Assembly: GCF_964355755.1 (NCBI RefSeq) | Contig: NC_092673.1 | Coordinates: 22,751,648 to 22,815,647 of the forward strand | Length of the DNA stretch: 64,000 nucleotides | Direction: 5' to 3' | Source of the DNA: Antedon mediterranea | Taxonomy: Eukaryota > Animalia > Echinodermata | Shown: piece by piece, positions 18,948-41,720 of the stretch | Layout: the number at the start of each line of letters is the position of its first letter | Position numbering within the stretch: position 1 is the stretch's first letter | Program-made: the position numbers and the translations under genes | The notes under the pieces: model-generated | Told to the model about the DNA's origin: nothing | Seen by the model: only the letters and a program-made list of their open reading frames with translations | Databases searched by the model: none

Positions 18948-19295
18948 ATTTTTTTTATTTATTCAATCGAAACCAACAGCGATAATTACCGCCACTAACA
19001 GGTTTGATAGAAACAAAGCCAGGACCTGTTTAAAGCACCTTGATTGGTCCTAACATTGATCAAGGGCTTCTCTCGTCCAGTGCCCACCTTGACCAGAAGT
19101 CTGAGGCAGATACTAGATACAGGGGCTGCCATAAGAGTCAGCAGTGCTGATTTCAAATGCCTAACGGGACCCAGCTCCATATACAGCATCCGTTATTCCC
19201 AGATGGTCTCCCATCCAAGCTCTAACCAGGCCCAACGTCGCTTAACTTCGGTGATCTCACGAGAACCGGTGTTTCAACGTGGTAAAGCCGTATTC
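18948..19295 (-). mobile_element. 5S rRNA-headed SINE (SINE3-type), full length
   Basis: 19182-19295 is a diverged 5S rRNA (TACGGC..ACCACGTTGAA..GATCACCGAAGTTAAGC..GGGCCTGGTTAG.CTTGGATGGGAGACC..GGGAATA) with no oligo-T terminator. It runs into a ~220-nt body and an A-rich tail; the body recurs at 51634-51838. Confidence 0.88.
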
Positions 19296-22893: not shown

Positions 22894-22949
22894 CTTTTCT
22901 CTTCTTCTTTTTCTATAGCTTCTATAGTTGAGCGTGACGGTCCTGCCAT
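22894..22949 (-). CDS. RPAP2: RPAP2 (RNA polymerase II-associated protein 2, Rtr1-type CTD phosphatase), coding exon 1
   Basis: ATG at 22949 gives MAGPSRSTIEAIEKEEEK. GT donor at 22893, phase 2, matches the next exon. An AG acceptor at 22964-22965 implies an upstream non-coding exon. Confidence 0.75.
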
Positions 22950-23696: not shown

Positions 23697-24535
23697 GGGT
23701 GTGTAGAAAACGACGACCTCGAATTGGACGACCCCAACGACCCGGGCGACCTCGAATTGGACGACCTAGAATTGGACGACCCATAACACGAAACCGACGA
23801 CCCCTATAGCCTAGCCTAGCCTAGGCCTAAGTGTGGTATAACATCCCGAAGCCGAACATAGCCAAAGATCTTTAAACCATACCTTATATAATACTCGCAA
23901 GCAAACAATTGATTGAAAAAATACAGAAATATCGTCATTTGATACTGAATGTGTCAACACGAACAAACGAACAGATATGGAACGCCAAGAGTGCATCATT
24001 AAAACTGCATTCGACTCGATTAAATACATCTCGTCTTCTTATAACGAACAATATAGGCCTACCAAGCAGCGTGTTGTGAACATGTGCATGAGGAGGGCCA
24101 TAAGAAAGCTTTACATTTCACACATGCATTGTATGCGGTCAAACCTTACCCGCTGCTGAAAAGGGGGCCGTTTTGACCTGGTTTGCCATGTTTATGATAT
24201 TTCGTGTGCTAATCGAGTCGAATGCAGTTTTAATGATGCACTCTTGGCGTTCCATATCTGTTCGTTTGTTCGTGTTGACGCATTCAGTATCAAATGGCGA
24301 TATTTCTGTATTTTTTCAATCAATTGATTGCTTGCGAGTATTAAGGTATGGTTTAAAGATCTTTGGCTATGTTCGGCTTCGGGATGTTATACCACACTTA
24401 GGCCTAGGCTATTACCCCTAATAATTAGGGGTCGTCGGTTTCGTGTTATGGGTCGTCCAATTCTAGGTCGTCCAATTCGAGGTCGCCCGGGTCGTTGGGG
24501 TCGTCCAATTCGAGGTCGTCGCTTTCTACACACCC
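23697..24535. mobile_element. MULE/Foldback-like MITE
   Basis: ~325-bp TIRs starting GGGTGTGTAGAAA with GACGACC subrepeats. 10-bp TSD TAGAAAAAAT at 23687-23696 and 24536-24545. Confidence 0.9.
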
Positions 24536-25349
24536 TAGAAAAAATCTGTATACTAAGTGTAATATATTAATATATGTATACCCAGCAAGCAAATACTGTA
24601 CTAGTGGTACTAATAATTATTTCTGGTACAATCCTATCTGCTTTTATTAATTATTTTACGCATGCAGTGTTGTGTATTTGGTTTGCTACAAAACAAATAT
24701 ATAGTTGATCTGGTCCTAATATTTAATAAGACTCTTGGCGGACAGGCAGGCATTATTAGGACCAAGCCAAAACTGTATAAGGCCTAGAGTTCTCTAAGAG
24801 GCTAGGCTTAGGTACTAGGCCCTACTAGAGGATAGGCCAGCCCTCTACTAGGCGCTGCATCATATTATAGCCTTATAAGTTATAGGCTAGTAGGAGGCCT
24901 CTTCTAGCTAGGCCTAGCTAGGCCTAGGCCTAGCCTAGTAGAAGGCCTAACAAATTATAATTTTTATCGACACGACTAATAATACTATTCTAGTACTATA
25001 GCCAAACATATGTATGGTTGATCATCCTGTATGTAATTAAAAATGAGGTATTATTATTGATAATAAATGATAAGTTTATAAGGAATACCTAGCTAGGCCT
25101 AGCTAGAAGTATCGAAGCACAGCTTGCTAGCGCCACACATCATGCATGTGGAGGTATATTCAGAGCGTCATTCTGACGACTGGAGCATTCTCTACTGCTC
25201 TACGGAGCGCCATTTATGCCTTTATTAACTTCAATAATAGAAATAGTACTACAGTACGGTAACTGCTCAAGTGGACCCAATTTAGCACCAGGGTAGCACA
25301 GTGATATAAAATAGAAATAAAAGTCACTACTTTTAATATCGTTTCGTAT

Positions 25350-26135
25350 ATACCCATATCACAAACTGACAAACAGAAACATCTTGGCATTCACATTGAT
25401 TCAAATTTATATTTTTCTTTTCATGTAAATAAACTCCGTTCCAAATGGGCTTGTCCATCTCCATCTTATCGCATGCTCGGTCATTTCATTAATAAACACA
25501 CATCTATACTCCTCTATAACACTATAATCCTCCCACACATTGACTATTGATGTAGTGTTTGGGGAATCAGATCGAATATTGACCGAATACAGACCATTCA
25601 AAATAGAGCACTTCGCATTATCCTTAAAGCTCATCCTCTCACACCACGAACTAACATTTACAACACCTTAAATCTTCATACAGTCCAAGATCGCATGCAT
25701 CTACAACTGGGCTGCCTTGCCTACAGGTCTGCAAATGGTCTTGCTCCGGAATACCTTGCCCTGCGTCTTGCCAGAATTCCAAATCATCGATGTACCCAAA
25801 GTGTCAGTGAGAGGAAATTTGTCGTCCCTTTCCCTAAAACAGAAACTTTTAAGAACAGCTTCATCTATAGAGCACCAACATACCTGAATTTGCTACCCAC
25901 CAAACTAAGAAATGCGGTAACAATAAATAATTTTAAGTCTGCTCTAAAAAAATATTTAATCCCAAAAGAAAAAACTCAACTTTTTGTATAGTATTGAGAC
26001 TATATTTTTGTATTTAAGTACATAATATATATTTTATATTTTTTTAACATAGTTCATCCGTTTTTTCATATATGTTTTTGACTGTCTGCATATGTTGCTT
26101 AGGGTCACCCTCACAAAATAAGGTTTAATAAAAAA
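25350..26135 (+). mobile_element. 5'-truncated LINE (CR1/L2-group) 3' fragment inserted in the left arm of the 9.8-kb element
   Basis: PISQTDKQKHLGIHIDSNL (RT thumb KxLGxxxD) at ~25354. ORF 25695-25991 (NGLAPEYL...KTETFKNSFIYRAP..LNLLP..FKSALK) is a typical LINE ORF2 C-terminus. A-rich tail at ~26127-26140. Confidence 0.85.
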
Positions 26136-26410
26136 ATAAAATAGAAATAAAGTCACTAAATTTTAATATCTTTTCGTATGTTAATACAATGTGCTCAAGT
26201 GGACCCAATTTGGCCCCAGTGGAGCACAGTAATATAAAATAGAAATAAAGTCACTACATTTTAATATATTTTCGTATAAAACACTGTGCTCAAGTGGACA
26301 CAATTTGGTACCAGGGGAACAGTGATATAAAATAGAAATAATGTCACTCAAGTTTCAATCTTTTCGTATGTTAATACACTCTGCTCAAGTGGACCCAATT
26401 TGGCACCAGT
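26136..26410. repeat. 97-bp subterminal repeat, ~3 copies (left arm, inverted relative to right arm)
   Basis: GTGCTCAAGTGGACCCAATTTGGCACCAG...GATATAAAATAGAAATAAAGTCACT units. Confidence 0.88.
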
Positions 26411-28395
26411 GGATTTTTTTTAAATGGGAAATAATGAATATTGTTTTTATTTTGAAAGAGAGATATTTTGAGGATTGTAAATGTCAAGTTGAACTTTTTT
26501 TAAATCAGAAACAAAGTTGCATGGCATTATTTTCCATTAAATAGACTGCCATAAAACCTCTAAAAGAAGCCCATGTGCTCCTTCATTTTCAATACTCTTG
26601 GGTGGGCTTCTTTTCCACATGGAGTTCTTTTCGAGATTACTTTTGCAAACTAAACGAGGGGAACTGCTAGCTTCCCGCCTGGAAAATATTTTATTTACAT
26701 GATTTGAAAAATCTTCTAATGTAAATAACAACATCAAAATTTAACAGTGTGGCATGTTGACCGCGAATGACTAACATACCATCTTTACCATAATACACCT
26801 GCACAGACTCATTTGCATAACAACGTACGCACATACCAAACTGTTTAAAATAGAGCTACAAGGTACCCGAAAATGACATCTATTATGTTTTCAAACAACA
26901 TGCATAAGAACCTTCAGTGCCCCACCATGCTTGGGGCTGAGCAAAGACAATTTTGGAAAAAAGAGAGCTGTATACAGTAGGTTCCCGCCCGAAAAATGGC
27001 GTTACATAATTTGAATGAAACAAACTATATAAAACTCACCAGGACAATATATGAGCTTGTCCCCGGAAAGTGCACCTATTCATTGAAATATAAAATTAAA
27101 TATTAAGTCTCTACTAGCCCATCCATGGTTGAGGCAGAGCAATAAAAATAGAGCCCAGAAATGCACTTACTTATACTTATTACTATACATAGTCACCTAT
27201 GATAATTATGATAATGTTAAAATTTCAACTATCCAGATGCGACTTCAACATTTTAGGTGGGGTTTTCTACTTTAAAAACTCGACTTCGATGGCCTAGCTC
27301 TGCGGCGGAATTAGTCTAAGCTTTGAAATTGGTCTGGAAATCGGCATCTTTGCAAATGTTCTATATTTGATCTTATTTCACTCTCCATTAACCTCATACA
27401 AAAACCATAGGAGACTATCTCTTTAAAACATGTTTATTCTGGGACGGTGCGGCCATACACACCAACTACTATGAAGAATCGGACATTTCGCTACCAATGT
27501 TGCAACATTGATTAACAAAATCAAAATTTAACAGTGGGGCGCGTTGACCGCGAATGACTAACAATACCATCTTTCCCACTACACCTGCACAAACTCTTTT
27601 GTATAACAACGAACGGCATACCAAACTATGATGAGAGATACATTCTCTTCTCAACACGTAACTCGTAACGAAATAATTAATTCCTTTTTTACATTAAAAT
27701 TGAGGCCGCTAAACATAAAAGTTACGAGATCAAATACATGTAGCGAAAGCCAAAAAAAGAGTAAAAATTGTGCTCTTCTTGCCTCAGCACTAAGGCCCTG
27801 CTTTAGTTTGTGGTGTAACGTGTAATGCTCAGTTTTGAGTGGTATCAGCTGGAGTTCGAACCTCTACGGATATTTTTTTTATGAATATTGGTTTTTTTTT
27901 AAAGAGAGATATTTGGAGGGTTGAAAATGTCAGGCCTGGACAAGTGGACCTTAAATCATAAACAAAAGTGTATGGCATTCATTTTTCCATTAAATAGACA
28001 ACATAACACCCCGAATGTTCCTCATTTGTTAGTAAACTTTTATTCACAACATAATATCAGTAGGCCTACAATACAATATCTTGCATGAAACGGATATTTA
28101 AAAATACACTATAATGTGTAACGGTAGAATTATAATTATAATGTAAAAGATTAACAAAATAAAAATTCAACACTGTTGTGTGTTGATCGCGAATGACTAA
28201 CAATACCATCTTTCCCACAGCACATGTGAACACTCATTTGCATAACAAACGCACGGCATACCAAACTACGATGAGATAAAATTAATTCTCTTCTAAACAC
28301 GTAACGAAGAGAATTAATTCTATCTTTTTACATTAAAATAAATTGAGGGCGCTAAACATCAAATTTAAACCATCAAAGAAGTTGACGAGAGCCAC

Positions 28396-28653
28396 AAAAA
28401 AAAAGATGGTAAATGTGCTCTCCCTGCCTCAGCACTAAGGCCCTGCCACAGCCTTTTGGGATCGTTTCCACCACATCACCAGATGCATTGATGTTGTCGC
28501 CTCATGATGTGTGGTGGAAAGGGGACGTATGATCTGTGAACCCCAAACACAGTGGCTCACATAGCCTTAACTCTATTCCACCGACCAGCGTGGGAATCGA
28601 ACCCACGACATACGTGTGTTAACACGACGCTCAGACGACTGAGCTAACTGATC
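28396..28653 (-). ncRNA. Putative Pol III RNA: tRNA-Ile(AAT)-like head (28582-28653) plus nested hairpin plus oligo-T, copy 1
   Basis: GATCAGTTAGCTCAGTCGTCTGAGCG...GTGGGTTCGATTCCCACGCTGGTC has A box, B box and acceptor/D/T stems with a 6-nt anticodon loop. No T4 run until the terminal T9. Confidence 0.65.
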
Positions 28654-28833: not shown

Positions 28834-30107
28834 ATGAATATTGGTTTTTTAATTTTTTATTTTGTATGGCATTCACTTTTCCATTAAATAGACACCATAA
28901 AACCCCAAAAATAGCCCATGTGTTCCTCTTTTTTTAGTACTCTTGGGTACGATGGGCTTCTTTTAAAAAACGGGTAAGCTTCTTTTCCGCATGGGGTTCT
29001 TTTCAAGATTACTTTTGCAAAATAAAGGAGGGGAGCTTCTAGGTTCCCGCCCGGAAAATTGTATCTTTACATGATTTGAATTTCTAATAAAGATTAGCAA
29101 AATCAAAATTTAACTTTTAAATTTAATTTTGTGGCGTGTTCACCGCGAATGACTAACAATGCCATCTTCCCCATTACACCTGCACAAACTCATTTGCATA
29201 ACAACGCACGGCATACCAAACTGTTTAAAACAACTACAAGGTTCCCAGAAATGACACCTATAGTATTTTGAAACATGATATATAAGAGTCTTCACTCCCC
29301 ACCGTGATTGGGGCTGAGCAAAGACAATTTAAAAAAAATATTTATTGAAATATGAAATTAAATATTAAGTCTCCAGTTAAGCTCACCATGGTTGGGGCAG
29401 AGATAAGAATGAAAGCTTATTCTCCGGAAATTATGAAACGAAATATATAAGTCTTCAGGACCAGCCATACAATGGTGACTGTTTCCCAAGTGTGAGACAT
29501 GCAATGCACGCGGCCGTGAAGGTAACAAAATTATGAAATACAAACAGAGCTAGCACACAAAAGCCTACTTACTAATTTTAATATTTCTATAATTTAGAAA
29601 ACAATTACAATTATCACCTTTGATAATTATAATGTTAAATTTCAACTATCCAGATGCGAATTTTAGGTTGGGTTTTAAAAAACTTGACTTTATATGCTTC
29701 AATTTCGAAGATCTGCTTAAAACATATTTATTTATTTATTCTACCATAAACTTTTATTCACAACATAATATCAGTAGGCCTACAATACAATATCTTGCAT
29801 GAAACGGATATTTAAAAATACACTATAATGTGTAACGGTAGAATTATAATTATAATGTAAAAGATTAACAAAATAAAAATTCAACACTGTTGTGTGTTGA
29901 TCGCGAATGACTAACAATACCATCTTTCCCACAGCACATGTGAACACTCATTTGCATAACAAACGCACGGCATACCAAACTACGATGAGATAAAATTAAT
30001 TCTCTTCTGAACACGTAACGAAGAGAATTAATTCTATCTTTTTACATTAAAATAAATTGAGGGCGCTAAACATCAAATTTAAACCATCAAAGAAGTTGGC
30101 GGGAGCC

Positions 30108-30368
30108 AAAAAAAAAAAGATGGTAAATGTGCTCTCCCTGCCTCAGCACTAAGGCCCTGCCACAGCCTTTTGGGGTCGTTTCCACCACATCACCAGATGC
30201 ATTGATGTTGTCGCCTCATGATGTGTGGTGGAAAGGGGGACGTATGATCTGTGAACCCCAAACACAGTGGCTCGCATAGCCTTAACTCTATTCCACCGAC
30301 CAGCGTGGGAATCGAACCCACGACATACGTGTGTTAACACGACGCTCAGACGACTGAGCTAACTGATC
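30108..30368 (-). ncRNA. Putative Pol III tRNA-headed hairpin RNA, copy 2
   Basis: As copy 1. Head at 30297-30368, terminal T11. Confidence 0.65.
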
Positions 30369-30457
30369 ATTTTGGTTTTAGCAAGGTTAATAGAATATTT
30401 ATGACGTAATGATGAATTACGTAATACACGTATAAATAGACTATTATCAGCTGTTCA
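30369..30457. promoter_or_regulatory. Putative bidirectional Pol III upstream region (present in every array unit)
   Basis: TATTTAT-GACGTAAT...ATTACGTAAT..TATAAATA: outward-facing TATA-like boxes ~27-34 nt from each RNA start, with ATF/CRE-like TGACGTAA and TTACGTAA sites between them. Confidence 0.45.
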
Positions 30458-30543
30458 GTCATGTTCCAGTTTGTGGTGCAACGGGTAATGCTCAGTTTTG
30501 AGTGCTATCAGTTGGGGTTCGAACCTCGACGGATATTTTTTTT
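30458..30543 (+). ncRNA. Short A-box/B-box Pol III-type RNA, copy 2
   Basis: TATAAATA at 30431, TGGTGCAACGG, GGTTCGAACC, T8 end. An internal TTTT is a caveat. Confidence 0.45.
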
Positions 30544-31822
30544 ATGAATATTGTTTTTTTTTGTTTTTTTTTTATTTTGTATGGCATTCACTTTTCCATT
30601 AAATAGACACCATAAAACCCCAAAAATAGCCCATGTGTTCCTCATTTTTTAGTACTCTTGGGTACGATGGGCTTCTTTTAAAAAACGGGTAAGCTTCTTT
30701 TCCGCATGGGATTCTTTTCAAGATTACTTTTGCAAAATAAAGGAGGGGCCGGAGCTTCTAGGTTCCCGCCCGGAAAATTGTATCTTTACATGATTTGAAT
30801 TTCTAATAAAGATTAGCAAAATCAAAATTTAACTTTTAAATTTAATTTTGTTGCGTATTCACCGCGAATGACTAACAATGCCATCTTCCCCATTACACCT
30901 GCACAAACTCATTTGCATAACAACGCACGGCATACCAAACTGTTTTAAACAACTACAAGGTCCCCAGAAATGACACCTATAGTATTTTGAAACATGATAT
31001 ATAAGAGTCTTCACTCCCCACCGTGATTGGGGCTGAGCAAAGACAATTTAAAAAAAATATTTATTGAAATATGAAATTAAATATTATGTCTCCAGTTAAG
31101 CTCACCATGGATGGGGCAGAGATAAGAATGAAAGCTTATTCCCCGGAAATTATGAAACGAAATATATAAGTCTTCAGGACCAGCCATACAATGGTGACTA
31201 TTTCCCAAGTGTGAGACATGCAATGCACGCGGCCGTAAATTATGAAATACAAACAGAGCTAGCACACAAAAGCATACTTACTAATTTTAATATTTCTATA
31301 ATTTAGAAAACAATTACAATTATCACCTTTGATAATCATAGGCCTAATGTTAAATTTCAACTATCCAGATGCGAATTTTAGGTTGGGTTTTAAAAAACTT
31401 GACTTCACATGCTTCAATTTCGAAGATCTGCTTAAAATATATTTATTTATTTATTCTACCATAAACTTTTATTCACAACATAATATCAGTAGGCCTACAA
31501 TACAATATCTTGCATGAAACGGATATTTAAAAATACACTATAATGTGTAACGGTAGAATTATAATTATAATGTAAAAGATTAACAAAATAAAAATTCAAT
31601 AGTGTTGTGTGTTGATCGCGAATGACTAACAATACCATCTTTCCCACAGCACTAGTGAACACTCATTTGCATAACAAACGCACGGCATACCAAACTACGA
31701 TGAGATAAAATTAATTCTCTTCTGAACACGTAACGAAGAGAATTAATTCTATCTTTTTACATTAAAATAAATTGAGGGCGCTAAACATCAAATTTAAACC
31801 ATCAAAGAAGTTGGCGAGAGCC

Positions 31823-32082
31823 AAAAAAAAAAGATGGTAAATGTGCTCTCCCTGCCTCAGCACTAAGGCCCTGCCACAGCCTTTTGGGGTCGTTTCCACC
31901 ACATAACCAGATGCATTGATGTTGTCGCCTCATGATGTGTGGTGGAAAGGGGGACGTATGATTTGTGAACCCCAAACACAGTGGCTCGCATAGCCTTAAC
32001 TCTATTCCACCGACCAGCGTGGGAATCGAACCCACGACATACGTGTGTTAACACGACGCTCAGACGACTGAGCTAACTGATC
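31823..32082 (-). ncRNA. Putative Pol III tRNA-headed hairpin RNA, copy 3
   Basis: As copy 1. Head at 32011-32082. Confidence 0.65.
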
Positions 32083-33535: not shown

Positions 33536-33782
33536 AAAAAAAAAGATGGTAAATGTGCTCTTCCTGCCTCAGCACTAAGGCCCTGCCACAGCCTTTTGGG
33601 GTCGTTTCCACCACATCACCAGATGCATTGATGTTGTCGCCTCATGATGTGTGGTGGAAAGGGGGACGTATGATCTGTGAACCCCAAACATAGCCTTAAC
33701 TCTATTCCACCGACCAGCGTGGGAATCGAACCCACGACATACGTGTGTTAACACGACGCTCAGACGACTGAGCTAACTGATC
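33536..33782 (-). ncRNA. Putative Pol III tRNA-headed hairpin RNA, copy 4 (12-nt internal deletion)
   Basis: Head at 33711-33782. Lacks CAGTGGCTCGCA (plus-strand reading) near 33690. Confidence 0.55.
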
Positions 33783-33955: not shown

Positions 33956-34043
33956 AATATTGTTTTTTTTTTAAATAGAGATATGTGACACTGTATTGTC
34001 GAACATGTATGATACCATACCGGTAAGTATTCAAATATGCTTA

Positions 34044-34822
34044 ATACGAAAAGATATTAAAATTCAGTGACTTATTTCTATTTTATATCACCGTGCTCCA
34101 TTGGCTCCAAGTTGGGTCCACTTAAGCACAGTGTATTAACATACGAAAAGATATTAAAATTCCGTGAATTATTTCTATTTTATATCACTGTGCTCGCCTG
34201 GTGCCAAATTGGGTACACTTGAGTACATTGTATTAAAATACGAAAAGATATTACAATTCAGTGACTTATTTCTATTTTATATCACTGTGCTCCACTGACG
34301 CCAAATTGGGTCCACTTGAGCACAGTGTATTAAAATACAAAAAGATATTAACATTCAGTGAATTATTTCTATTTTATATCAATGTGCTTCCCTGGTATCA
34401 AATTGGGTCCACTTGAGCACAGTGTATTAAAATACGAAAAGATATTAAAATTCAGTGACTTATTTCTATTTTATATCACTGTGCTCCCCTGGCTCCAAAT
34501 AGGGTTCAATTGAGCAAAGTGTATTAAAATACGAAAAGATATTAAAATTCAGTGACTTGTTTCTATTTTATATCACTATGCTCCCCTGGCTCCAAATTGG
34601 GTCCACATGAGCACAATGTAATAACATACGAAACGATATTAAAATTAGTGACTTTATTTCTATTTTATATCACTGTGCTCCACTGGCTCCAAATTGTGTC
34701 CACTTGAGCACAGTGTATTAGCATACGAAAAGATATTAACATTCAATGACTTGTTTCTATTTATATCACTGTGCTCCACTGGCTCCAAATTGGGTCCACT
34801 TGAGCACAGTGTATTAACATAC
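34044..34822. repeat. 97-bp subterminal tandem repeat, ~8 copies (right arm)
   Basis: ATAC(G/A)AAA(A/C)GATATT recurs at 34044, 34141, 34238, 34335, 34432, 34529, 34626 and ~34723. Reverse-complement copies lie at ~25262-25348 and ~26136-26410. Confidence 0.92.
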
Positions 34823-35282
34823 GGTGCTAAATTTGGTCCACTGAACCAGTTACCGTAGTACTATTTCTATTTCGGAACTAAATAAAGGCATAAATGGCGC
34901 TCCATAGAAGTAGAGAATGCTCGATCGTCGAAATGATGCTCTGAATATACCTCGCATGTGTGTGTGTGTGTTTTTGTTTACGTTTTGTAACACGTGCTCC
35001 AGTAGTAGTATAGCGCCGCTAATCTTTGGTGGCGCTATATCCGAGTCTTTTCCCGTTGTTAACGTACGTATCGGTGGTAGGCCTAGCCTAGCTAGCCTCT
35101 AGACCTAGGCCTACTGTACAGGTTTTCAAGTTTAATTACATTTTCTAGTAGCTAGCTAGGATACCCTATATATATATATATAGTAAGTAGTAGTAGGCCT
35201 AGCTAGTAGGCCTAGCCAGGCTAGGTAGGCTAGCCAAATGTCAATGACGGAATGTAGGCCTGCCCTTGGGCCTACTAGCTAG

Positions 35283-37310
35283 GGATGCTAGTCAAGTCGC
35301 CCCATCGCAAAGTCGCCCCATACAAAGTCGCCCCTTACACAGTCGCCCCATCGCAAAGTCGCCCCAAAACAAAGTCGCCCCGACACAGTCGCCCTATCGC
35401 AAAGTCGCCCCATCGCAAAGTCGCCCCAACGCAAAGTCGCCCCATCGCAAAGTCGCCCCATCACAAAGTCGCCCTATCGCAAAGTCGCCCCAAAACGTTA
35501 AAAAATAGTTTACAAGTGCGTAAAATGTTGCAATGATACACAAAATAACACAGAACGTGTAGGCATAAAAGGGGAAGCCCCGCCATGTAGTCTCAGGTCA
35601 CACGATCGGCACGCACCCCCATATCAGAGAGGAAGCCCCCGACTAATCACTCGGTCGCACTCCGCGGTCGCACACTCTAACGTGCTAGCTTACCAGAGGG
35701 AAACCCCCGTAATTACTCCGCCGTTGCCGTTGTCGCACTCTACAACGCACCATCTGAAGATGGGGAAACCCCGCCAGAGTTTTACGATGATATCATCAGT
35801 CGCGTTCGAAATCGGTCGCGATAAAATGATGTTATACGATCTAGATTATTTTTACTTTGGTCGATGAATATTTATTATTATTATTAGGCCTATATTAATA
35901 ATTGATTTTTGTTTTTATTTTACAGGTCAGTAGGTCTATGATGAGAAAGATGTGTGGCTTAAAAAATGACAATTTGTAAACATAGTTTAAGATATAGTAT
36001 TATCCAGCATAATGTCATTTAACAGTACATAATTATTTAAATGTGAAATATTTTATAGGAAACGTAGGCTACGTCTGTGTCTTTTATTTTATATGCAACA
36101 AATTACGTAAAACAATTCATTTATAAACATTCAGTTTACTATTATATACATAGTATTACAGTGAACATTGATTGTAAGACTCCTGGAAAGGCAATCCCAT
36201 CATTATATCCCATTATAAAATTGCATCATATCACCACTATATGTCGTAAATGATAACGTGCGTGTGTGTATTTGTCGTACGTCCGTGTACGTATTATTCC
36301 GTGCCTCTTCACTGTCTTGTTTAATTTAAAATTAAATAAACACCTGATATGAGGATATTTATTAGGCATTATAATTAGAATGTTCTATAACCAAAAGGAT
36401 TGAAAAAAATTTCTTCAGTAAAATGATCATTGTGCTGTTGAATAAAAGGCGACTCGCCATCTGAAACATTCTCTGAATCCAATCGGAGCTGCGCCTTCTG
36501 GTATCTGTTTCCTCACAGCTGCTACGTCTTTCTGCTGACCGTCGGGGATTCCCCTTTTTAAAAAACACGCACACGATACTGTACGATGGTTTTTCCATGG
36601 TCAAAATGTCGCGTTTTAATTTTACTAATACTTGCATGTAAAACAATCATATTCATTTTGAAAAGTCATTATAAAATTAAGACACATAACTTGTCAATAA
36701 ATGCAAAATGATCAATAAGTAGCCTATAACACTCGTCTTACAACACTGTTATTGTTTTAACTACTGTAAATCTATACGAAGGCCTACTACACATTTATAC
36801 ATTTATTATAGGCTATTATCCTAAAAAATGAGCTGGTATCGCGTAGGTTGAAGAAATTGTAATTGTGGCTCTGGTAACTAATTTTAAAATCATATTAAAT
36901 TAACATTTTCGAAACTATAAATCAGGGATAATCTTTTTAAAACTTTCAAACAAGGGACTATTTTTTTAATGATTTTTAAAAAGCACATCACTCCATTAAA
37001 ATCTGTAAAATACAAATTAAAACACATATTATGTATATAATAGGATAAACATTAATGTATACGACATTCAAAGTAACAACGCAATCGATGTCAAACGCAA
37101 CCGATATGATTAAAACCGTGGGCGACTTTGCGATTGGGCGACTTTGCGTTGGGGCGACTTTGCGATGGGGCGAATTTGCGATGGGGCGACTTTGAAATGG
37201 GGCGACTGTGCCGGGGCGACTTTGTTTTGGGGCGACTTTGCGATGGGGCGACTTTGTATTGGGCGACTTTGTATGGGGCGACTTTGCGATGGGGCGACTT
37301 GACTGGATCC
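35283..37310. mobile_element. MULE/Foldback-like non-autonomous element
   Basis: Inverted arrays of ~16-bp CAAAGTCGCCCCATCG at both ends. 9-bp near-TSD (A/C)CTAGCTAG. Confidence 0.85.
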
Positions 37311-37851
37311 CCTAGCTAGAGGGCTAACCTGTGCCCTGCCTACTAGGCCCTATCTATATACTAGGCTGGCCGGTCCTAGCTTGCTTGGAAGCTGGGCTTT
37401 CTAGCCTATACTATGGCTTATATCTACTACCCAGCCAGTCCATATAGTAGTAGTCCATCTGAGATACTACCCACCCAGTCCATAAATTATAAAAAGGACA
37501 TAAAAACATGTCATTTTGTAATTAAATTAAATAAAATAATTAATAAATTAAATAAACGTGTGATGAATAGAAAAGGCCTAGCTAGGCCTACATACAAACA
37601 AATAGAAATTGTTTCGTCTAATAAAAAATTGTAAATTTTGGACCAATATCTTCTAAAATAGTCGCCGAGTCGAAATTTCCCATCCCATCAGGATTTCTTA
37701 GGTGAAGTTTTCATAAATTCTCCCAAATATTATAAAAATCACTGCATCTAATCTCTTCATTATTGAGCTATGTGGTTTAGATTAAATTACAAATAATAGC
37801 AACTTCTTTATTTAACATTAGATGAACATATCTTGCCAAGCCAGTTAAATC

Positions 37852-38268
37852 ATGCAGTACACAAAAGAAGTAGCACTTCTGGAGGCTGCCTTCCAACTTG
37901 CTGAGAAACAATATTCTGGTGCCAACCTAGCAAATACATGTTTAGGTGACATCAGTCAGGATAATGAAGACCAACCCTTGGCGCAAGTAGCGGATACTCT
38001 CATCACTGGTATATCTGAAATTATTGGAGGCTTAGAATGTCCCCTAAGTGATGAAGAACAAAAACATACCAGTTTTGTTGTGCATTCTGTATTATTTAAC
38101 AGCTTTTATAAACAGATTTTATCATTGAAAGGCAATGAACAGAAGAAAGCATCATCGAGGAATCAAAACAATGCAACATACTGTATCCTGGATGTGTTCC
38201 CTAGAATTGGATCAATGCTTTACTATATTTTGTTGGTCAGGTTCAACTGGGGTAACCTATTTGGACAG
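37852..38268 (+). CDS. GEMIN4: Gemin4-like (SMN complex component), coding exon 1
   Basis: KEVALLEAAFQLAEKQYSGANLA and DVFPRIGSMLYYILL..LFGQ align by eye with Gemin4 [23 protein letters not shown] and NMIPTINHTILFELL..LFIQ. Acceptor at 37821, donor at 38269. Confidence 0.8.
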
Positions 38269-38663: not shown

Positions 38664-39540
38664 ATGGTGAGTGTACTTCGCCCAGAGACATCCACTCTTA
38701 TTCTACATGAGATTCTCAGCCAATGTATTAAGGAACCTCAACCACAAATGGAACGGTTTTTAGCAGACATTGTCAGCGGTATTCTACCTGATTCTCTATC
38801 TAAGTCACATCCAGATGTTTTATCCAATCAAAGATCTGCTGTGAGTTTTCACCAGTTGAAATGGAAAAACTTGCTTTTATTCTATAACATGGTTTTCGAT
38901 CGTTTGAGTAAAGGATATAGTGAGTCTGAAAATTGTAATAGTATTTGTAAACTAACCTCATCGTGTCTTTTATGCTTGTTCGATTTTCTGAGCAGTCATC
39001 TAAGACGAGAAATCACAATGATTGAAGATGTGAAGTTTCAAATGGAAGATCGGCTTTATGACATCACAAACACTATGCAAATTTCCACCGACATCCCAAT
39101 ACAGTTTTATCAAAAACTTCAACAGATGTTTCTAGATGAATCAGTTAACAAACCCATCTTTGATAAACTAAGGAATTCTTCTCATTGCATACTGAATGAT
39201 AATCTTCAAAGCTTTTTAGATGATTTCTTATGTAGTTTTAATAGATGCATAGCTGCGTGCAAACTTGTTGACACTTTGCAAAAATCAAATATTGAAAACC
39301 AGGAAAAGGGAAAACTTGGAAAGACGTGCTACTACTTATGGAAATGTTTGAAACCGTTTATTGGAGCACAGGAAAGTAATCTAACAAGTCTTTATTTGCT
39401 TGAGAATGAGTTTGATAAATTTTGCCAAACGGAAAAGACAGGTGAAGCTGCAGATGAAAAGTTGGAACCAATACAGACGATCGAAGATGATTTAAAAGAA
39501 GCAATTTGGAGGGTGGATAACAGACTAATTGGTTATCAAG
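38664..39540 (+). CDS. GEMIN4: Gemin4-like coding exon 2
   Basis: 296-aa ORF, tttgtAG acceptor and GTAAAG donor. Phase 0 in, phase 1 out, matching both neighbours. Confidence 0.85.
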
Positions 39541-39598
39541 GTAAAGCAAAGTAGAACCCATATTATAGGGATACCAACAACGTATCCCTATAATAGGG

Positions 39599-41720
39599 GT
39601 GTCACCTGAATTTAAAACATATATTTCCTCCTGTTCGTTTTATAATTGAAAGTGTCCCTCAATGTGGGTGTCACCTGAATTTAAAACATATATTTCCTCC
39701 TGTTCGTTTTATAATTGAAAGTGTCCCTTAATGTGGGTGTCACCTGAATTTAAAACATATATTTCCTCCTGTTCGTTTTATAATTGAAAGTGTCCCTCAA
39801 TGTGGGTGTCACCTGAATTTAAAACATATATTTCCTCCTGTTCGTTTTATAATTGAAAGTGTCCCTCAATGTGGGTGTCACCTGAATTTAAAACATATAT
39901 TTCCTCCTGTTCGTTTTATAATTGAAAGTGTCCCTCAATGTGGGTGTCACCTGAATTTAAAACATATATTTCCTCCTGTTCGTTTTATAATTGAAAGTGT
40001 CCCTCAATGTGGGTGTCCCTGAGTAGGGGTTGTTAAAACATATATATCCTTCTGTTCATTTTATAATTGAAAGTGTCCCTCAATGTGGGTGTCCCTGAGT
40101 AGGGGTTGTTAAAACATATATATCCTTCTGTTCGTAAATTGAAAGTGTCCCTCAATGTGGGTGTCCCTGAGTAGGGGTTGTTAAAACATATATATCCTTC
40201 TGTTCATTTTATAATTGAAAGTGTCCCTCAATGTGGGTGTCCCTGAGTAGGGGTTGTTAAAACATATATATCCTTCTGTTCGTTTTATAATTGAAAGTGT
40301 CCCTCAATGTGGGTGTCCCTGAGTAGGGGTTGTTAAAACATATATATCCTTCTGTTCATTTTATAATTGAAAGTGTCCCTCAATGTGGGTGTCCCTGAGT
40401 AGGGGTTGTTAAAACATATATATCCTTCTGTTCATTTTATAATTGAAAGTGTCCCTCAATGTGGGTGTCCCTGAGTAGGGGTTGTTAAAACATATATATC
40501 CTTCTGTTCGTTTTATAATTGAAAGTGTCCCTCAATGTGGGTGTCCCTGAGTAGGGGTTGTTAAAACATATATATCCTTCTGTTCATTTTATAATTGAAA
40601 GTGTCCCTCAATGTGGGTGTCCCTGAGTAGGGGTTGTTAAAACATATTATATCCTTCTGTTTGTTTTATAATTGAAAGTGTCCCTCAATGTGGGTGTCCC
40701 TGAGTAGGGGTTGTTAAAACATATATATCCTTCTGTTCGTAAATTGAAAGTGTCCCTCAATGTGGGTGTCCCTGAGTAGGGGTTGTTAAAACATATATAT
40801 CCTTCTGTTTGTTTTATAATTGAAAGTGTCCCTCAATGTGGGTGTCCCTGAGTAGGGGTTGTTAAAACATATATATCCTTCTGTTTGTTTTATAATTGAA
40901 AGTGTCCCTCAATGTGGGTGTCCCTGAGTAGGGGTTGTTAAAACATATTATATCCTTCTGTTTGTTTTATAATTGAAAGTGTCCCTCAATGTGGGTGTCC
41001 CTGAGTAGGGGTTGTTAAAACATATATATCCTTCTGTTCATTTTATAATTGAAAGTGTCCCTCAATGTGGGTGTCCCTGAGTAGGGGTTGTTAAAACATA
41101 TTATATCCTTCTGTTTGTTTTATAATTGAAAGTGTCCCTCAATGTGGGTGTCCCTGAGTAGGGGTTGTTAAAACATATTATATCCTTCTGTTTGTTTTAT
41201 AATTGAAAGTGTCCCTCAATGTGGGTGTCCCTGAGTAGGGGTTGTTAAAACATATATATCCTTCTGTTTGTTTTATAATTGAAAGTGTCCCTCAATGTGG
41301 GTGTCCCTGAGTAGGGGTTGTTAAAACATATATATCCTTCTGTTTGTTTTATAATTGAAAGTGTCCCTCAATGTGGGTGTCCCTGAGTAGGGGTTGTTAA
41401 AACATATATATCCTTCTGTTTGTTTTATAAATTGAAAGTGTCCCTCAATGTGGGTGTCCCTGAGTAGGGGTTGTTAAAACATATATATCCTTCTGTTTGT
41501 TTTATAATTGAAAGTGTCCCTCAATGTGGGTGTCCCTGAGTAGGGGTTGTTAAAACATATATATCCTTCTGTTCGTTTTATAATTGAAAGTGTCCCTCAA
41601 TGTGGGTGTCCCTGAGTAGGGGTTGTTAAAACATATATATCCTTCTGTTCTTTTTATAATTGAAAGTGTCCCTCAATGTGGGTGTCCCTGAGTAGGGGTT
41701 GTTAAAACATATATATCCTT
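39599..41720. repeat. Intronic minisatellite: ~6 x 69 bp then ~23 x ~76 bp
   Basis: GTGTCACCTGAATTT unit at 39599, 39668 and onward. It switches at 40013 to the GTGTCCCTGAGTAGGGGTTG unit. Both share TTATAATTGAAAGTGTCCCTCAATGTGG. Confidence 0.97.

What the first reader, a model, noticed from the sequence alone, without database searches (positions are those of the whole stretch)
30108..30368. tRNA-Ile-like head fused to a ~180-nt nested hairpin and ending in oligo-T: gene-like rather than SINE-like
Seen on the minus strand: a 72-nt cloverleaf (GATCAGT/GCTGGTC, GCTC/GAGC, GTGGG-TTCGATT-CCCAC) with a defective 6-nt anticodon loop. It is followed by nested stems TAAGGC/GCCTTA, GCCAC/GTGGC, TTTGGGGT/ACCCCAAA and TTTCCACCACA/TGTGGTGGAAA, a small GTGCT/AGCAC hairpin, then T9-11. 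There is no earlier T4, no A-rich or microsatellite tail and no TSD. The copy-1 C-to-U change in ACCCC keeps pairing (G-U) only on this strand. Known: retroposed SINEs end in A-rich or simple-repeat tails, whereas murine gammaherpesvirus TMERs use a tRNA-like leader cut by RNase Z to release a downstream hairpin. Inference: the tRNA part acts as promoter and processing tag for an unknown structured RNA.
Basis: partly seen in the sequence, partly recalled or inferred. Interest (0 to 1): 0.78.

Follow-up and report, generated by a model that had tools for sequence, protein, structure and literature searches.

The report
Feather star tRNA-led hairpin RNA genes
In a feather star genome, four tandem copies of a tRNA-derived head fused to a 180-base tail with a long predicted hairpin each sit back to back with a second tRNA-like sequence, and together they likely form small-RNA genes in which the tRNA-shaped head is predicted to serve as promoter and as a cutting tag that would release an unknown RNA.

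Summary
The element occurs four times within a 1,715-bp tandem unit in the crinoid Antedon. The head derives from tRNA-Ile(AAU). All five acceptor-stem changes keep pairing (one is a double change; chance 0.03-0.15), while anticodon loop, discriminator and D-loop GG are lost. Between the two lie two outward-facing TATA-like boxes (-34; -33/-36) and three ACGT cores. A diverged paralog in public contigs keeps a piece of this partner. Here the copies were amplified as DNA with their flanks, and lack target-site duplications and tails, so they are not ordinary SINE insertions. The tail matches no Rfam family and shows no compensatory change (0 of 74 pairs). One copy lacks a stem arm and an older copy lost head and hairpin. 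Best reading: a tandemly amplified Pol III gene pair (about 0.6) whose tRNA-shaped head is cut by tRNase Z (about 0.35 overall). Transcription and cutting are untested, and a neutral tandem repeat remains possible. New variant of known kinds; interest 0.5.

The parts
30297..30368 (-). Gene A head: tRNA-Ile(AAU)-derived cloverleaf; box A 30361-30351, box B 30318-30308; 6-nt anticodon loop, G discriminator, no D-loop GG
   Evidence: (alignment only)
30119..30296 (-). Gene A tail, 178 nt: predicted nested rod (nt 85-219), small 3' hairpin (nt 220-240) and a terminal stem joining nt 72-76 to nt 246-250
   Evidence: no Rfam family at gathering score
30108..30118 (-). T11 run, first T4 downstream of the head; putative Pol III terminator
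30396..30402 (-). TATA-like ATAAATA starting at -34 from head nt 1, present in 4 of 4 copies
30404..30431 (.). Three ACGT cores (CRE/ATF-like, label recalled); the only four ACGT triples within 30 nt in the 64-kb window are these four spacers
30431..30438 (+). TATAAATA at -36 (-33 in copy 4) from nt 1 of gene B
30467..30543 (+). Gene B: degenerate tRNA-Gln-like sequence, box A 30474-30484, box B 30516-30526, T8 at 30536-30543; head-to-head with gene A, 98 bp apart
   Evidence: not detected by ARAGORN or Rfam
28396..28653 (-). Gene A copy 1 (3 differences from copy 2)
31823..32082 (-). Gene A copy 3 (2 differences, both break a predicted pair)
33536..33782 (-). Gene A copy 4: 12-nt deletion removing the GCCAC arm, 1 substitution
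27510..27899 (-). Older diverged unit: gene B and the 3' module of A directly joined, head and hairpin deleted
26517..27286 (.). Remnants of still older unit spacers (72-84% identical pieces), same module order
29200..30914 (.). One 1,715-bp tandem unit
29863..29990 (.). Spacer module with an ATTTGCAT octamer (label recalled); a second, 77-82% identical module per unit at about 30838-30941
29988..30039 (.). AT-rich 20-bp palindrome downstream of the terminator (z -5.15)

Best explanation
This is a tandemly repeated, head-to-head pair of tRNA-derived sequences that likely works as a pair of RNA polymerase III genes, in which the tRNA-shaped head of gene A is predicted to be cut off by tRNase Z, which would release a 178-nt hairpin RNA of unknown target. 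Shown: the anatomy (A and B boxes, two outward TATA-like boxes, T runs, tandem amplification with flanks, descent from tRNA-Ile, kept acceptor and T stems, lost decoding features). Inferred steps: (1) TFIIIC binds the internal boxes of A and B, and TFIIIB loads on the two TATA-like boxes of the shared 95-103 bp spacer. (2) Pol III makes a 250-nt A transcript and a 70-nt B transcript ending in the T runs. (3) RNase P and tRNase Z read the acceptor/T-arm helix and cut after nt 72. (4) The released tail closes on itself through a terminal stem that starts at the cut site and ends at the terminator, and acts as a protein-binding structured RNA, not as a Drosha-type microRNA precursor. (5) The family spreads and decays by unequal recombination (birth and death). 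My odds: transcribed Pol III gene pair about 0.6; cleavage, given that, a little over half.
For: Parent identified: 113 of 130 parsed matches to head-derived arms are tRNA-Ile(AAT). Against the 17 closest, 7 stem positions differ, 5 of 6 affected pairs stay paired, and one is a double change, G2-C71 to A2-U71 (G2-C71 in 106 of 113, A2-T71 in 0 of 113). Decoding features are gone: loop 6 nt here, 7 nt in one common variant, 3 nt in the paralog; discriminator G against A in 112 of 113. The head is identical in 4 of 4 copies. Copy 4 differs from copy 2 at 1 of 233 positions in gene A and at 15 of 338 in flanks and spacer (P 0.003). In the old unit, gene parts differ at 8 of 93 and flanks at 43 of 237 positions (P 0.04). 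The promoter geometry is mirror-like and kept in 4 of 4 copies; a TATA-like box near -31/-24 is required in 4.5SH/4.5SI genes (PMC10137851, passages). A paralog with 15 differences in 130 nt keeps the D-loop GG and a 5-bp anticodon stem, and its contig also matches gene B's box-B region upstream (joint 30324-30513, 31 letters, one contig). The tail's predicted terminal stem runs from the expected cut site to the terminator. Precedents: RNAs that begin right after nt 73 of a tRNA and are released by tRNase Z (PMC2566860, passages); 200-250-nt TMERs (PMC4838037, passages); echinoderms have both tRNase Z forms (PMC3433465, passages).
Against: No compensatory change in the tail: 0 of 74 pairs among four copies. 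Of 10 point variants picked from the contig tables, 5 are unpaired, 2 keep a pair and 3 break one, partners unseen. Copy 3 breaks pairs, copy 4 lacks an arm, the old unit lacks most of gene A. The paralog's distal 3' arm differs and I could not read a compensating 5' arm. Acceptor-pair retention is not significant if nearly all changes are transitions (P 0.15), and the reference tRNAs are not from Antedon. Including the rest of the spacer weakens the gene-versus-flank contrast to P 0.09, and gene conversion could give the same pattern. The main family lacks the D-loop GG, and tRNase Z's flexible arm binds the D and T loops (PMC3433465). The main X13 variant has an extra A after the acceptor 5' strand. 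The discriminator base is predicted to be paired (0.99). The tail alone is only modestly stable (z -1.6 to -1.9).
Confidence: 0.35

Rival explanations
1. The same Pol III gene pair, but the 250-nt RNA stays whole: the head is only an internal promoter and a folded protein-binding domain, as in 4.5SH/4.5SI, snaR or OAX-type RNAs.
For: All promoter and tandem-array evidence. D-loop GG lost, D arm refolded, discriminator paired, extra base in a common variant. Hundreds of 4.5SH genes lie in 4-5 kb tandem units (PMC10137851, passages).
Against: The acceptor stem keeps 7 of 7 pairs through five changes, which a mere promoter would not need; the paralog keeps the D-loop GG.
Confidence: 0.27
2. A neutral complex tandem repeat that captured tRNA-derived pieces long ago (like newt PolIII/TAN or Rana/polIII). 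The boxes persist by concerted evolution, any transcript is incidental, and the hairpin is a by-product.
For: Flanks are repeated along with the element: 2,625 contigs of run X2 lie across 29851-30750, and many joints skip parts of the element (15 shown, 5 more hidden). Broken and deleted copies in the window. No covariation. Such tRNA-bearing tandem repeats are known (PMC10702118, passages).
Against: Gene parts are better kept than flanks in two comparisons. The symmetric TATA/ACGT spacer, and the partner's trace in a diverged paralog. Pair-preserving changes in the head.
Confidence: 0.22
3. A SINE family or its source gene: the tandem units are masters, and dispersed retrocopies exist elsewhere in the genome.
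For: The tRNA head plus body of unknown origin and the 250-nt length fit the commonest SINE plan (PMC3531059). One 1,227-nt X13 contig holds only 30150-30233 in unrelated DNA, and some contigs continue after the 3' hairpin with other flanks.
Against: Tandem, not interspersed, in this window. No simple-repeat tail or TSD. Upstream TATA and partner are retained, which retroposition would lose. The variant 3' ends listed also end in T runs, not A tails. None of the 6 X2 loose ends shown lies at the element's borders (195 rows of that table hidden).
Confidence: 0.09
4. Cargo of a non-autonomous DNA transposon (Helitron/Helentron-like) of about 700 bp that carries both tRNA-like pieces and a stem-loop.
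For: The old copy matches the span 29863-30562, with a T-rich right end and a strong internal palindrome; many internal deletions in contigs.
Against: The old copy continues as the same tandem spacer rather than ending in unique DNA. No terminal repeats were found for the cassette, and no piece of the unit occurs elsewhere in the 64-kb window.
Confidence: 0.07

Closest known systems
MHV68 TMERs (tRNA-miRNA-encoded RNAs)
   Same: Pol III plan, 200-250 nt, tRNA-like 5' part followed directly by hairpin RNA; cut by tRNase Z (PMC4838037, passages).
   Different: Cellular and tandemly repeated; one long nested rod plus a small hairpin rather than two pre-miRNA hairpins; cleavage untested; divergent partner.
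Dicistronic tRNA-ncRNA genes (plant tRNA-Gly-snoR43, Yarrowia tRNA-5S and tRNA-Trp-RUF70)
   Same: Multi-copy fusion with the second RNA beginning right after the tRNA and using its promoter (PMC2566860, passages).
   Different: The leader here cannot decode (6-nt or 3-nt loop, G discriminator); the tail is neither a C/D snoRNA nor 5S; animal genome.
Rodent 4.5SH / 4.5SI RNA genes and primate snaR
   Same: [quoted passage not shown]
   Different: Longer, keeps a full acceptor stem, no parent SINE identified, head-to-head partner.
Amphibian tRNA-bearing tandem repeats (Xenopus OAX/satellite I, newt PolIII/TAN, Rana/polIII)
   Same: tRNA-derived segment inside a long tandem unit (PMC10702118, passages; the OAX paper itself was not held).
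   Different: Two divergent tRNA-like units per repeat, shared TATA/ACGT spacer, structured 178-nt tail.
Trypanosomatid snRNA genes with upstream tRNA-like and divergent tRNA elements
   Same: A neighbouring tRNA-like sequence with A/B boxes, itself transcribed, next to a Pol III RNA gene (PMC4950102, abstract).
   Different: Gene A has its own internal boxes; the tail has no Sm site and no snRNA match.
tRNA-derived SINEs
   Same: tRNA head, body of unknown origin, about 250 nt.
   Different: Tandem with conserved flanks, no tail, no TSD in this window.

Membership tests
tRNA-derived SINE (SINEBase definition, PMC3531059 section 4) | At least 60% identity to a tRNA over 60 nt | tested here: met
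   Alignment to tRNA-Ile(AAT)
tRNA-derived SINE (SINEBase definition, PMC3531059 section 4) | Interspersed (non-tandem) | tested here: not met
   Four copies in 1,715-bp tandem units and none elsewhere in 64 kb; the rest of the genome was not available
tRNA-derived SINE (SINEBase definition, PMC3531059 section 4) | Simple-repeat 3' tail / TSD | tested here: not met
   T run then shared flank; longest shared flank word 4 nt in copy 2
tRNA-derived SINE (SINEBase definition, PMC3531059 section 4) | At least 100 copies | tested here: inconclusive
   2,625 variant contigs in X2; one X10 contig at depth 326.8 beside diverged ones at 2.7-3.2; the tool warns that depth is not copy number
Functional tRNA-Ile | 7-nt anticodon loop with AAU, D-loop GG, A73 | tested here: not met
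   6-nt loop, no GG, G discriminator; against 113, 112 and 112 of 113 true genes
TMER / dicistronic tRNA-ncRNA | tRNA-like leader with A and B boxes, paired acceptor and T stems, directly followed by structured RNA and a T run | tested here: met
TMER / dicistronic tRNA-ncRNA | Pol III transcription and tRNase Z cleavage after the discriminator | not testable with these tools
   Needs RNA data or an in vitro assay
TMER / dicistronic tRNA-ncRNA | Pre-miRNA hairpins (TMER) or C/D boxes (plant type) in the tail | tested here: inconclusive
   A 56-nt distal hairpin exists but is buried in a larger rod; no exact C box; miRNA and snoRNA models score 14-16 bits, far below gathering
4.5SH-type tandem Pol III gene | [quoted passage not shown] | tested here: met
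4.5SH-type tandem Pol III gene | Abundant discrete transcript; descent from a known SINE | not testable with these tools
   No RNA reads and no Antedon repeat library available
HDV-like or hammerhead ribozyme | Catalytic core motifs (recalled) and Rfam match | tested here: not met
   No L3 motif, no CUGANGA core, no Rfam hit; the alternative P1-like pairing has probability 0 in the full RNA
7SK, 7SL, vault, Y RNA, telomerase RNA, snRNA | Rfam model match or signature motif | tested here: not met
   No match at gathering score; only YrlA at 16.3 bits, E 2.1; no Sm site or template motif

The most novel reading that the evidence does not exclude
A cellular, animal counterpart of the viral TMER design: crinoids carry a multi-copy family in which a non-decoding tRNA mimic acts as promoter and tRNase Z tag for a new class of about 180-nt structured RNA, transcribed head-to-head with a second tRNA mimic from one 100-bp bidirectional TATA/CRE Pol III promoter.
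Probability: 0.3. Interest if true: 0.78.

Novelty: new variant of a known kind. Interest (0 to 1): 0.5.

Why it matters
If true, it shows an animal nuclear genome building a new RNA gene family from a pseudo-tRNA leader. In the papers I read, that route is known from plants, a yeast and a herpesvirus, plus a human tRNA-miRNA case cited in PMC2566860. It would add an unknown abundant RNA to echinoderms and give a compact, testable bidirectional Pol III promoter. It would also mean that some of the many tRNA predictions in crinoid genomes (11,013 in Glyptometra, PMC13079724) may be leaders of such RNAs. If false, it is one more tRNA-bearing tandem repeat.

Tried and rejected
No own genome is held, so genome-wide copy number and dispersal could not be counted. 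Sequencing runs: no RNA holder listed. Run X6 is only guessed to be RNA, and its contigs cover flanks as well as the element; neither result bears on expression. Cross-species conservation: not shown. Of 20 listed runs I laid 7. X9, X14 and X20 gave 8 (4 on the shorter stretch), 2 and 1 contigs at depth 2-6, matching variants seen in the rich runs, which looks like trace DNA. Pattern scans for the head-tail junction or the conserved tail motif found nothing in viral contigs, metagenomes or prokaryote genomes. The tail had no BLAST match in the 128 tRNA loci. Earlier scan notes: nothing by sequence or place, one unrelated hit by words. HDV-like ribozyme: the tail start can pair with UUCCACC in nascent folds up to 175 nt, but core motifs are absent; rejected. 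Foldback transposon bounded by the inverted 95-97-bp arrays at 26136-26413 and 34043-34823: rejected, because a third piece at 25134-25359 shows they belong to a separate interspersed element. Intronic origin: the cluster lies outside both neighbouring coding spans (rpap2 start at 22949 on minus, P0001 start at 37852 on plus); 5' UTR introns untested. tRNA-Sec likeness of the 6-bp D stem (recalled): rejected, no long variable arm and a 7/5 fold. The stem statistics had an index error and were replaced. The sigma-70 scan and Pfam scan were uninformative. Ten literature searches listed no description of this family; subscription journals, repeat databases and all supplements were not seen.

Full report
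Setting. Two window proteins match Antedon mediterranea records at 100% identity, so the window is from a crinoid. The element lies between the start codons of rpap2 (22949, minus) and an uncharacterised gene (37852, plus). No whole genome is held.

Observation. ARAGORN and Rfam find four identical 72-nt tRNA-like heads on the minus strand at 28653, 30368, 32082 and 33782. They lie in a 1,715-bp tandem unit. Each is followed by a tail of about 178 nt (166 in copy 4) and a T9-T11 run, which is the first T4. The named stems are predicted, most with probability above 0.9. The whole RNA folds at z -2.95, the nested rod at z -3.62, the tail alone at z -1.6 to -1.9 and its opposite strand at z -0.44. 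There is no TSD or tail. Rfam gives only tRNA at gathering score.

The head. Of 130 parsed matches, 113 are tRNA-Ile(AAT), 12 GAT, 4 AAC and 1 TAT; 120 of 130 have a T4 within 20 nt and none matches the tail. Against the 17 closest genes the head differs at 7 stem positions. In the one detailed, five affected pairs stay paired, including a double change G2-C71 to A2-U71 seen in 0 of 113, and the terminal anticodon-stem pair breaks. Random placement keeps all seven acceptor pairs with probability 0.03-0.15, depending on the transition share. This is suggestive, not decisive, and the references are not Antedon tRNAs. The anticodon loop is 6 nt, the discriminator is G, and the D-loop GG is lost. 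Boxes A and B are intact (consensus recalled).

A second tRNA-like sequence, gene B, begins 95-103 bp upstream on the opposite strand, with box A, box B and a T run (T8 in copy 2; interrupted in copy 4). Its best match among 176 tRNAs is Gln(CTG), weakly, and it does not fold as a cloverleaf. The spacer is mirror-like. ATAAATA starts at -34 from A in 4 of 4 copies, TATAAATA at -36 or -33 from B, and three ACGT cores lie between them. The four spacers are the only places in 64 kb with three ACGT within 30 nt. TATA-like boxes at this position are required in 4.5SH and 4.5SI genes (PMC10137851, passages).

History in the window. An older unit at 27510-27899 joins B directly to the 3' module of A, and older spacer remnants reach 26517. 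In the old unit, gene parts differ from copy 2 at 8 of 93 positions and flanks at 43 of 237 (P 0.04). Copy 4 differs at 1 of 233 in gene A and 15 of 338 in flanks (P 0.003). Pooling the three young copies gives P 0.007, or 0.09 when the rest of the spacer is included; these comparisons share one reference. Copy 4 has lost one stem arm and copy 3 breaks pairs. Among four copies 0 of 74 pairs show a double change.

Public contigs. Twenty runs from 10 studies hold part of the stretch; I laid seven. X2 gave 2,625 contigs over 900 bases, flanks included, with many joints that skip parts and one that loops back from 30663 to 29860, suggesting arrays with a shorter unit. This points to a large family amplified as DNA, though the tool's depth is not a copy number. 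The main X13 variant (323 nt, depth 73.6) has a 7-nt anticodon loop, a C in place of the D-loop U, and an extra A after the acceptor 5' strand. A paralog seen in X9, X10, X13 and X20 aligns over 30194-30323 with 15 differences. Its loose ends show a D-loop with GG, a 5-bp anticodon stem with a 3-nt loop, and a different distal 3' arm. In X13 the same contig also matches gene B's box-B region upstream. Only 6 of its 15 differences were listed, so covariation could not be read. Of ten point variants checked, five are unpaired, two keep a pair and three break one. The sparse runs look like trace DNA and do not show conservation across species.

Mechanism. The best reading is a Pol III gene pair on a shared promoter (about 0.6). 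Its A transcript keeps a tRNA-like acceptor/T helix and is cut after nt 72 (about 0.35 overall), releasing a tail whose ends pair from the cut site to the terminator. Every step from transcription onward is inferred. Precedents are plant tRNA-snoRNA and Yarrowia tRNA-5S and tRNA-RUF70 genes (PMC2566860, passages) and TMERs (PMC4838037, passages). Echinoderms have both tRNase Z forms, and the enzyme's arm binds the D and T loops (PMC3433465, passages), which the main family's altered D-loop may hinder. The short form also cuts non-tRNA Pol III RNAs in human cells (PMC13692180, abstract). TMER4 appears to act as tRNA-like part plus one stem-loop, so an uncleaved RNA is a close rival (0.27). A neutral tandem repeat like PolIII/TAN or Rana/polIII (PMC10702118, passages) gets 0.22, a SINE source 0.09, transposon cargo 0.07.

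Comparison and novelty. It fails the SINE test on interspersion and tail (PMC3531059, section 4 read whole). It is not a decoding tRNA. It meets the anatomical but not the experimental criteria of TMER-type and 4.5SH-type genes. snaR (PMC3045588, abstract) and Leishmania tRNA-like promoters (PMC4950102, abstract) are looser parallels. Ten searches (listings only, except the papers named) listed no account of this family. Subscription journals, repeat databases and supplements were not seen and may hold one. Verdict: a real, gene-like element, a new variant of known kinds, function unproven; interest 0.5.

Noticed in passing
window 30428-30541 and 30105-30161: In runs X6 and X13 more contig depth lies on the 3' hairpin module of A than on the head, and in X6 also on gene B from about its TATA box; other flanks join at both. 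B and the 3' module may belong to larger families of their own. Summed depth is a poor measure, so this is only a lead.
   Followed up: partly
window 19178-19295 (-): Single 5S rRNA-like copy (75.8 bits) with several broken pairs, in an rpap2 intron; probably a pseudogene.
   Followed up: no
window 25134-25359, 26136-26413, 34035-34968: An interspersed element with a variable number of internal 95-97-bp palindromic tandem repeats, in both orientations; Helentron/MITE-like by recall.
   Followed up: partly
window 35270-35474 and 37120-37324: 205-nt inverted arms made of 16-bp repeats, 1,645 nt apart; a foldback or MITE-like element.
   Followed up: no
window 23697-24535: Nested near-perfect inverted repeats (98-100%) forming an 840-bp palindrome-like element.
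   Followed up: no
window 39523-41720: 69-bp and 76-bp minisatellites in an intron of the P0001 gene.
   Followed up: no
window 29863-29990 and 30838-30941: Octamer-bearing module twice per unit, each about 500 bp upstream of one of the two genes; 8 of the window's 14 octamers lie in the cluster. Could be an enhancer-like element.
   Followed up: partly
window 30297-30226 (-): The tail start can pair with UUCCACC in folds of nascent transcripts up to 175 nt and switches to the distal hairpin later. The paralog has a change that would lengthen this early helix and, in the 30 letters seen, lacks the competing distal arm.
   Followed up: partly
window 25551-25991 (+): 146-aa frame that reads like the C-terminal end of a LINE ORF2 (recalled); no Pfam hit.
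   Followed up: no
window 1793 (+): A lone box-B-like motif outside the cluster; not recognised as tRNA.
   Followed up: partly
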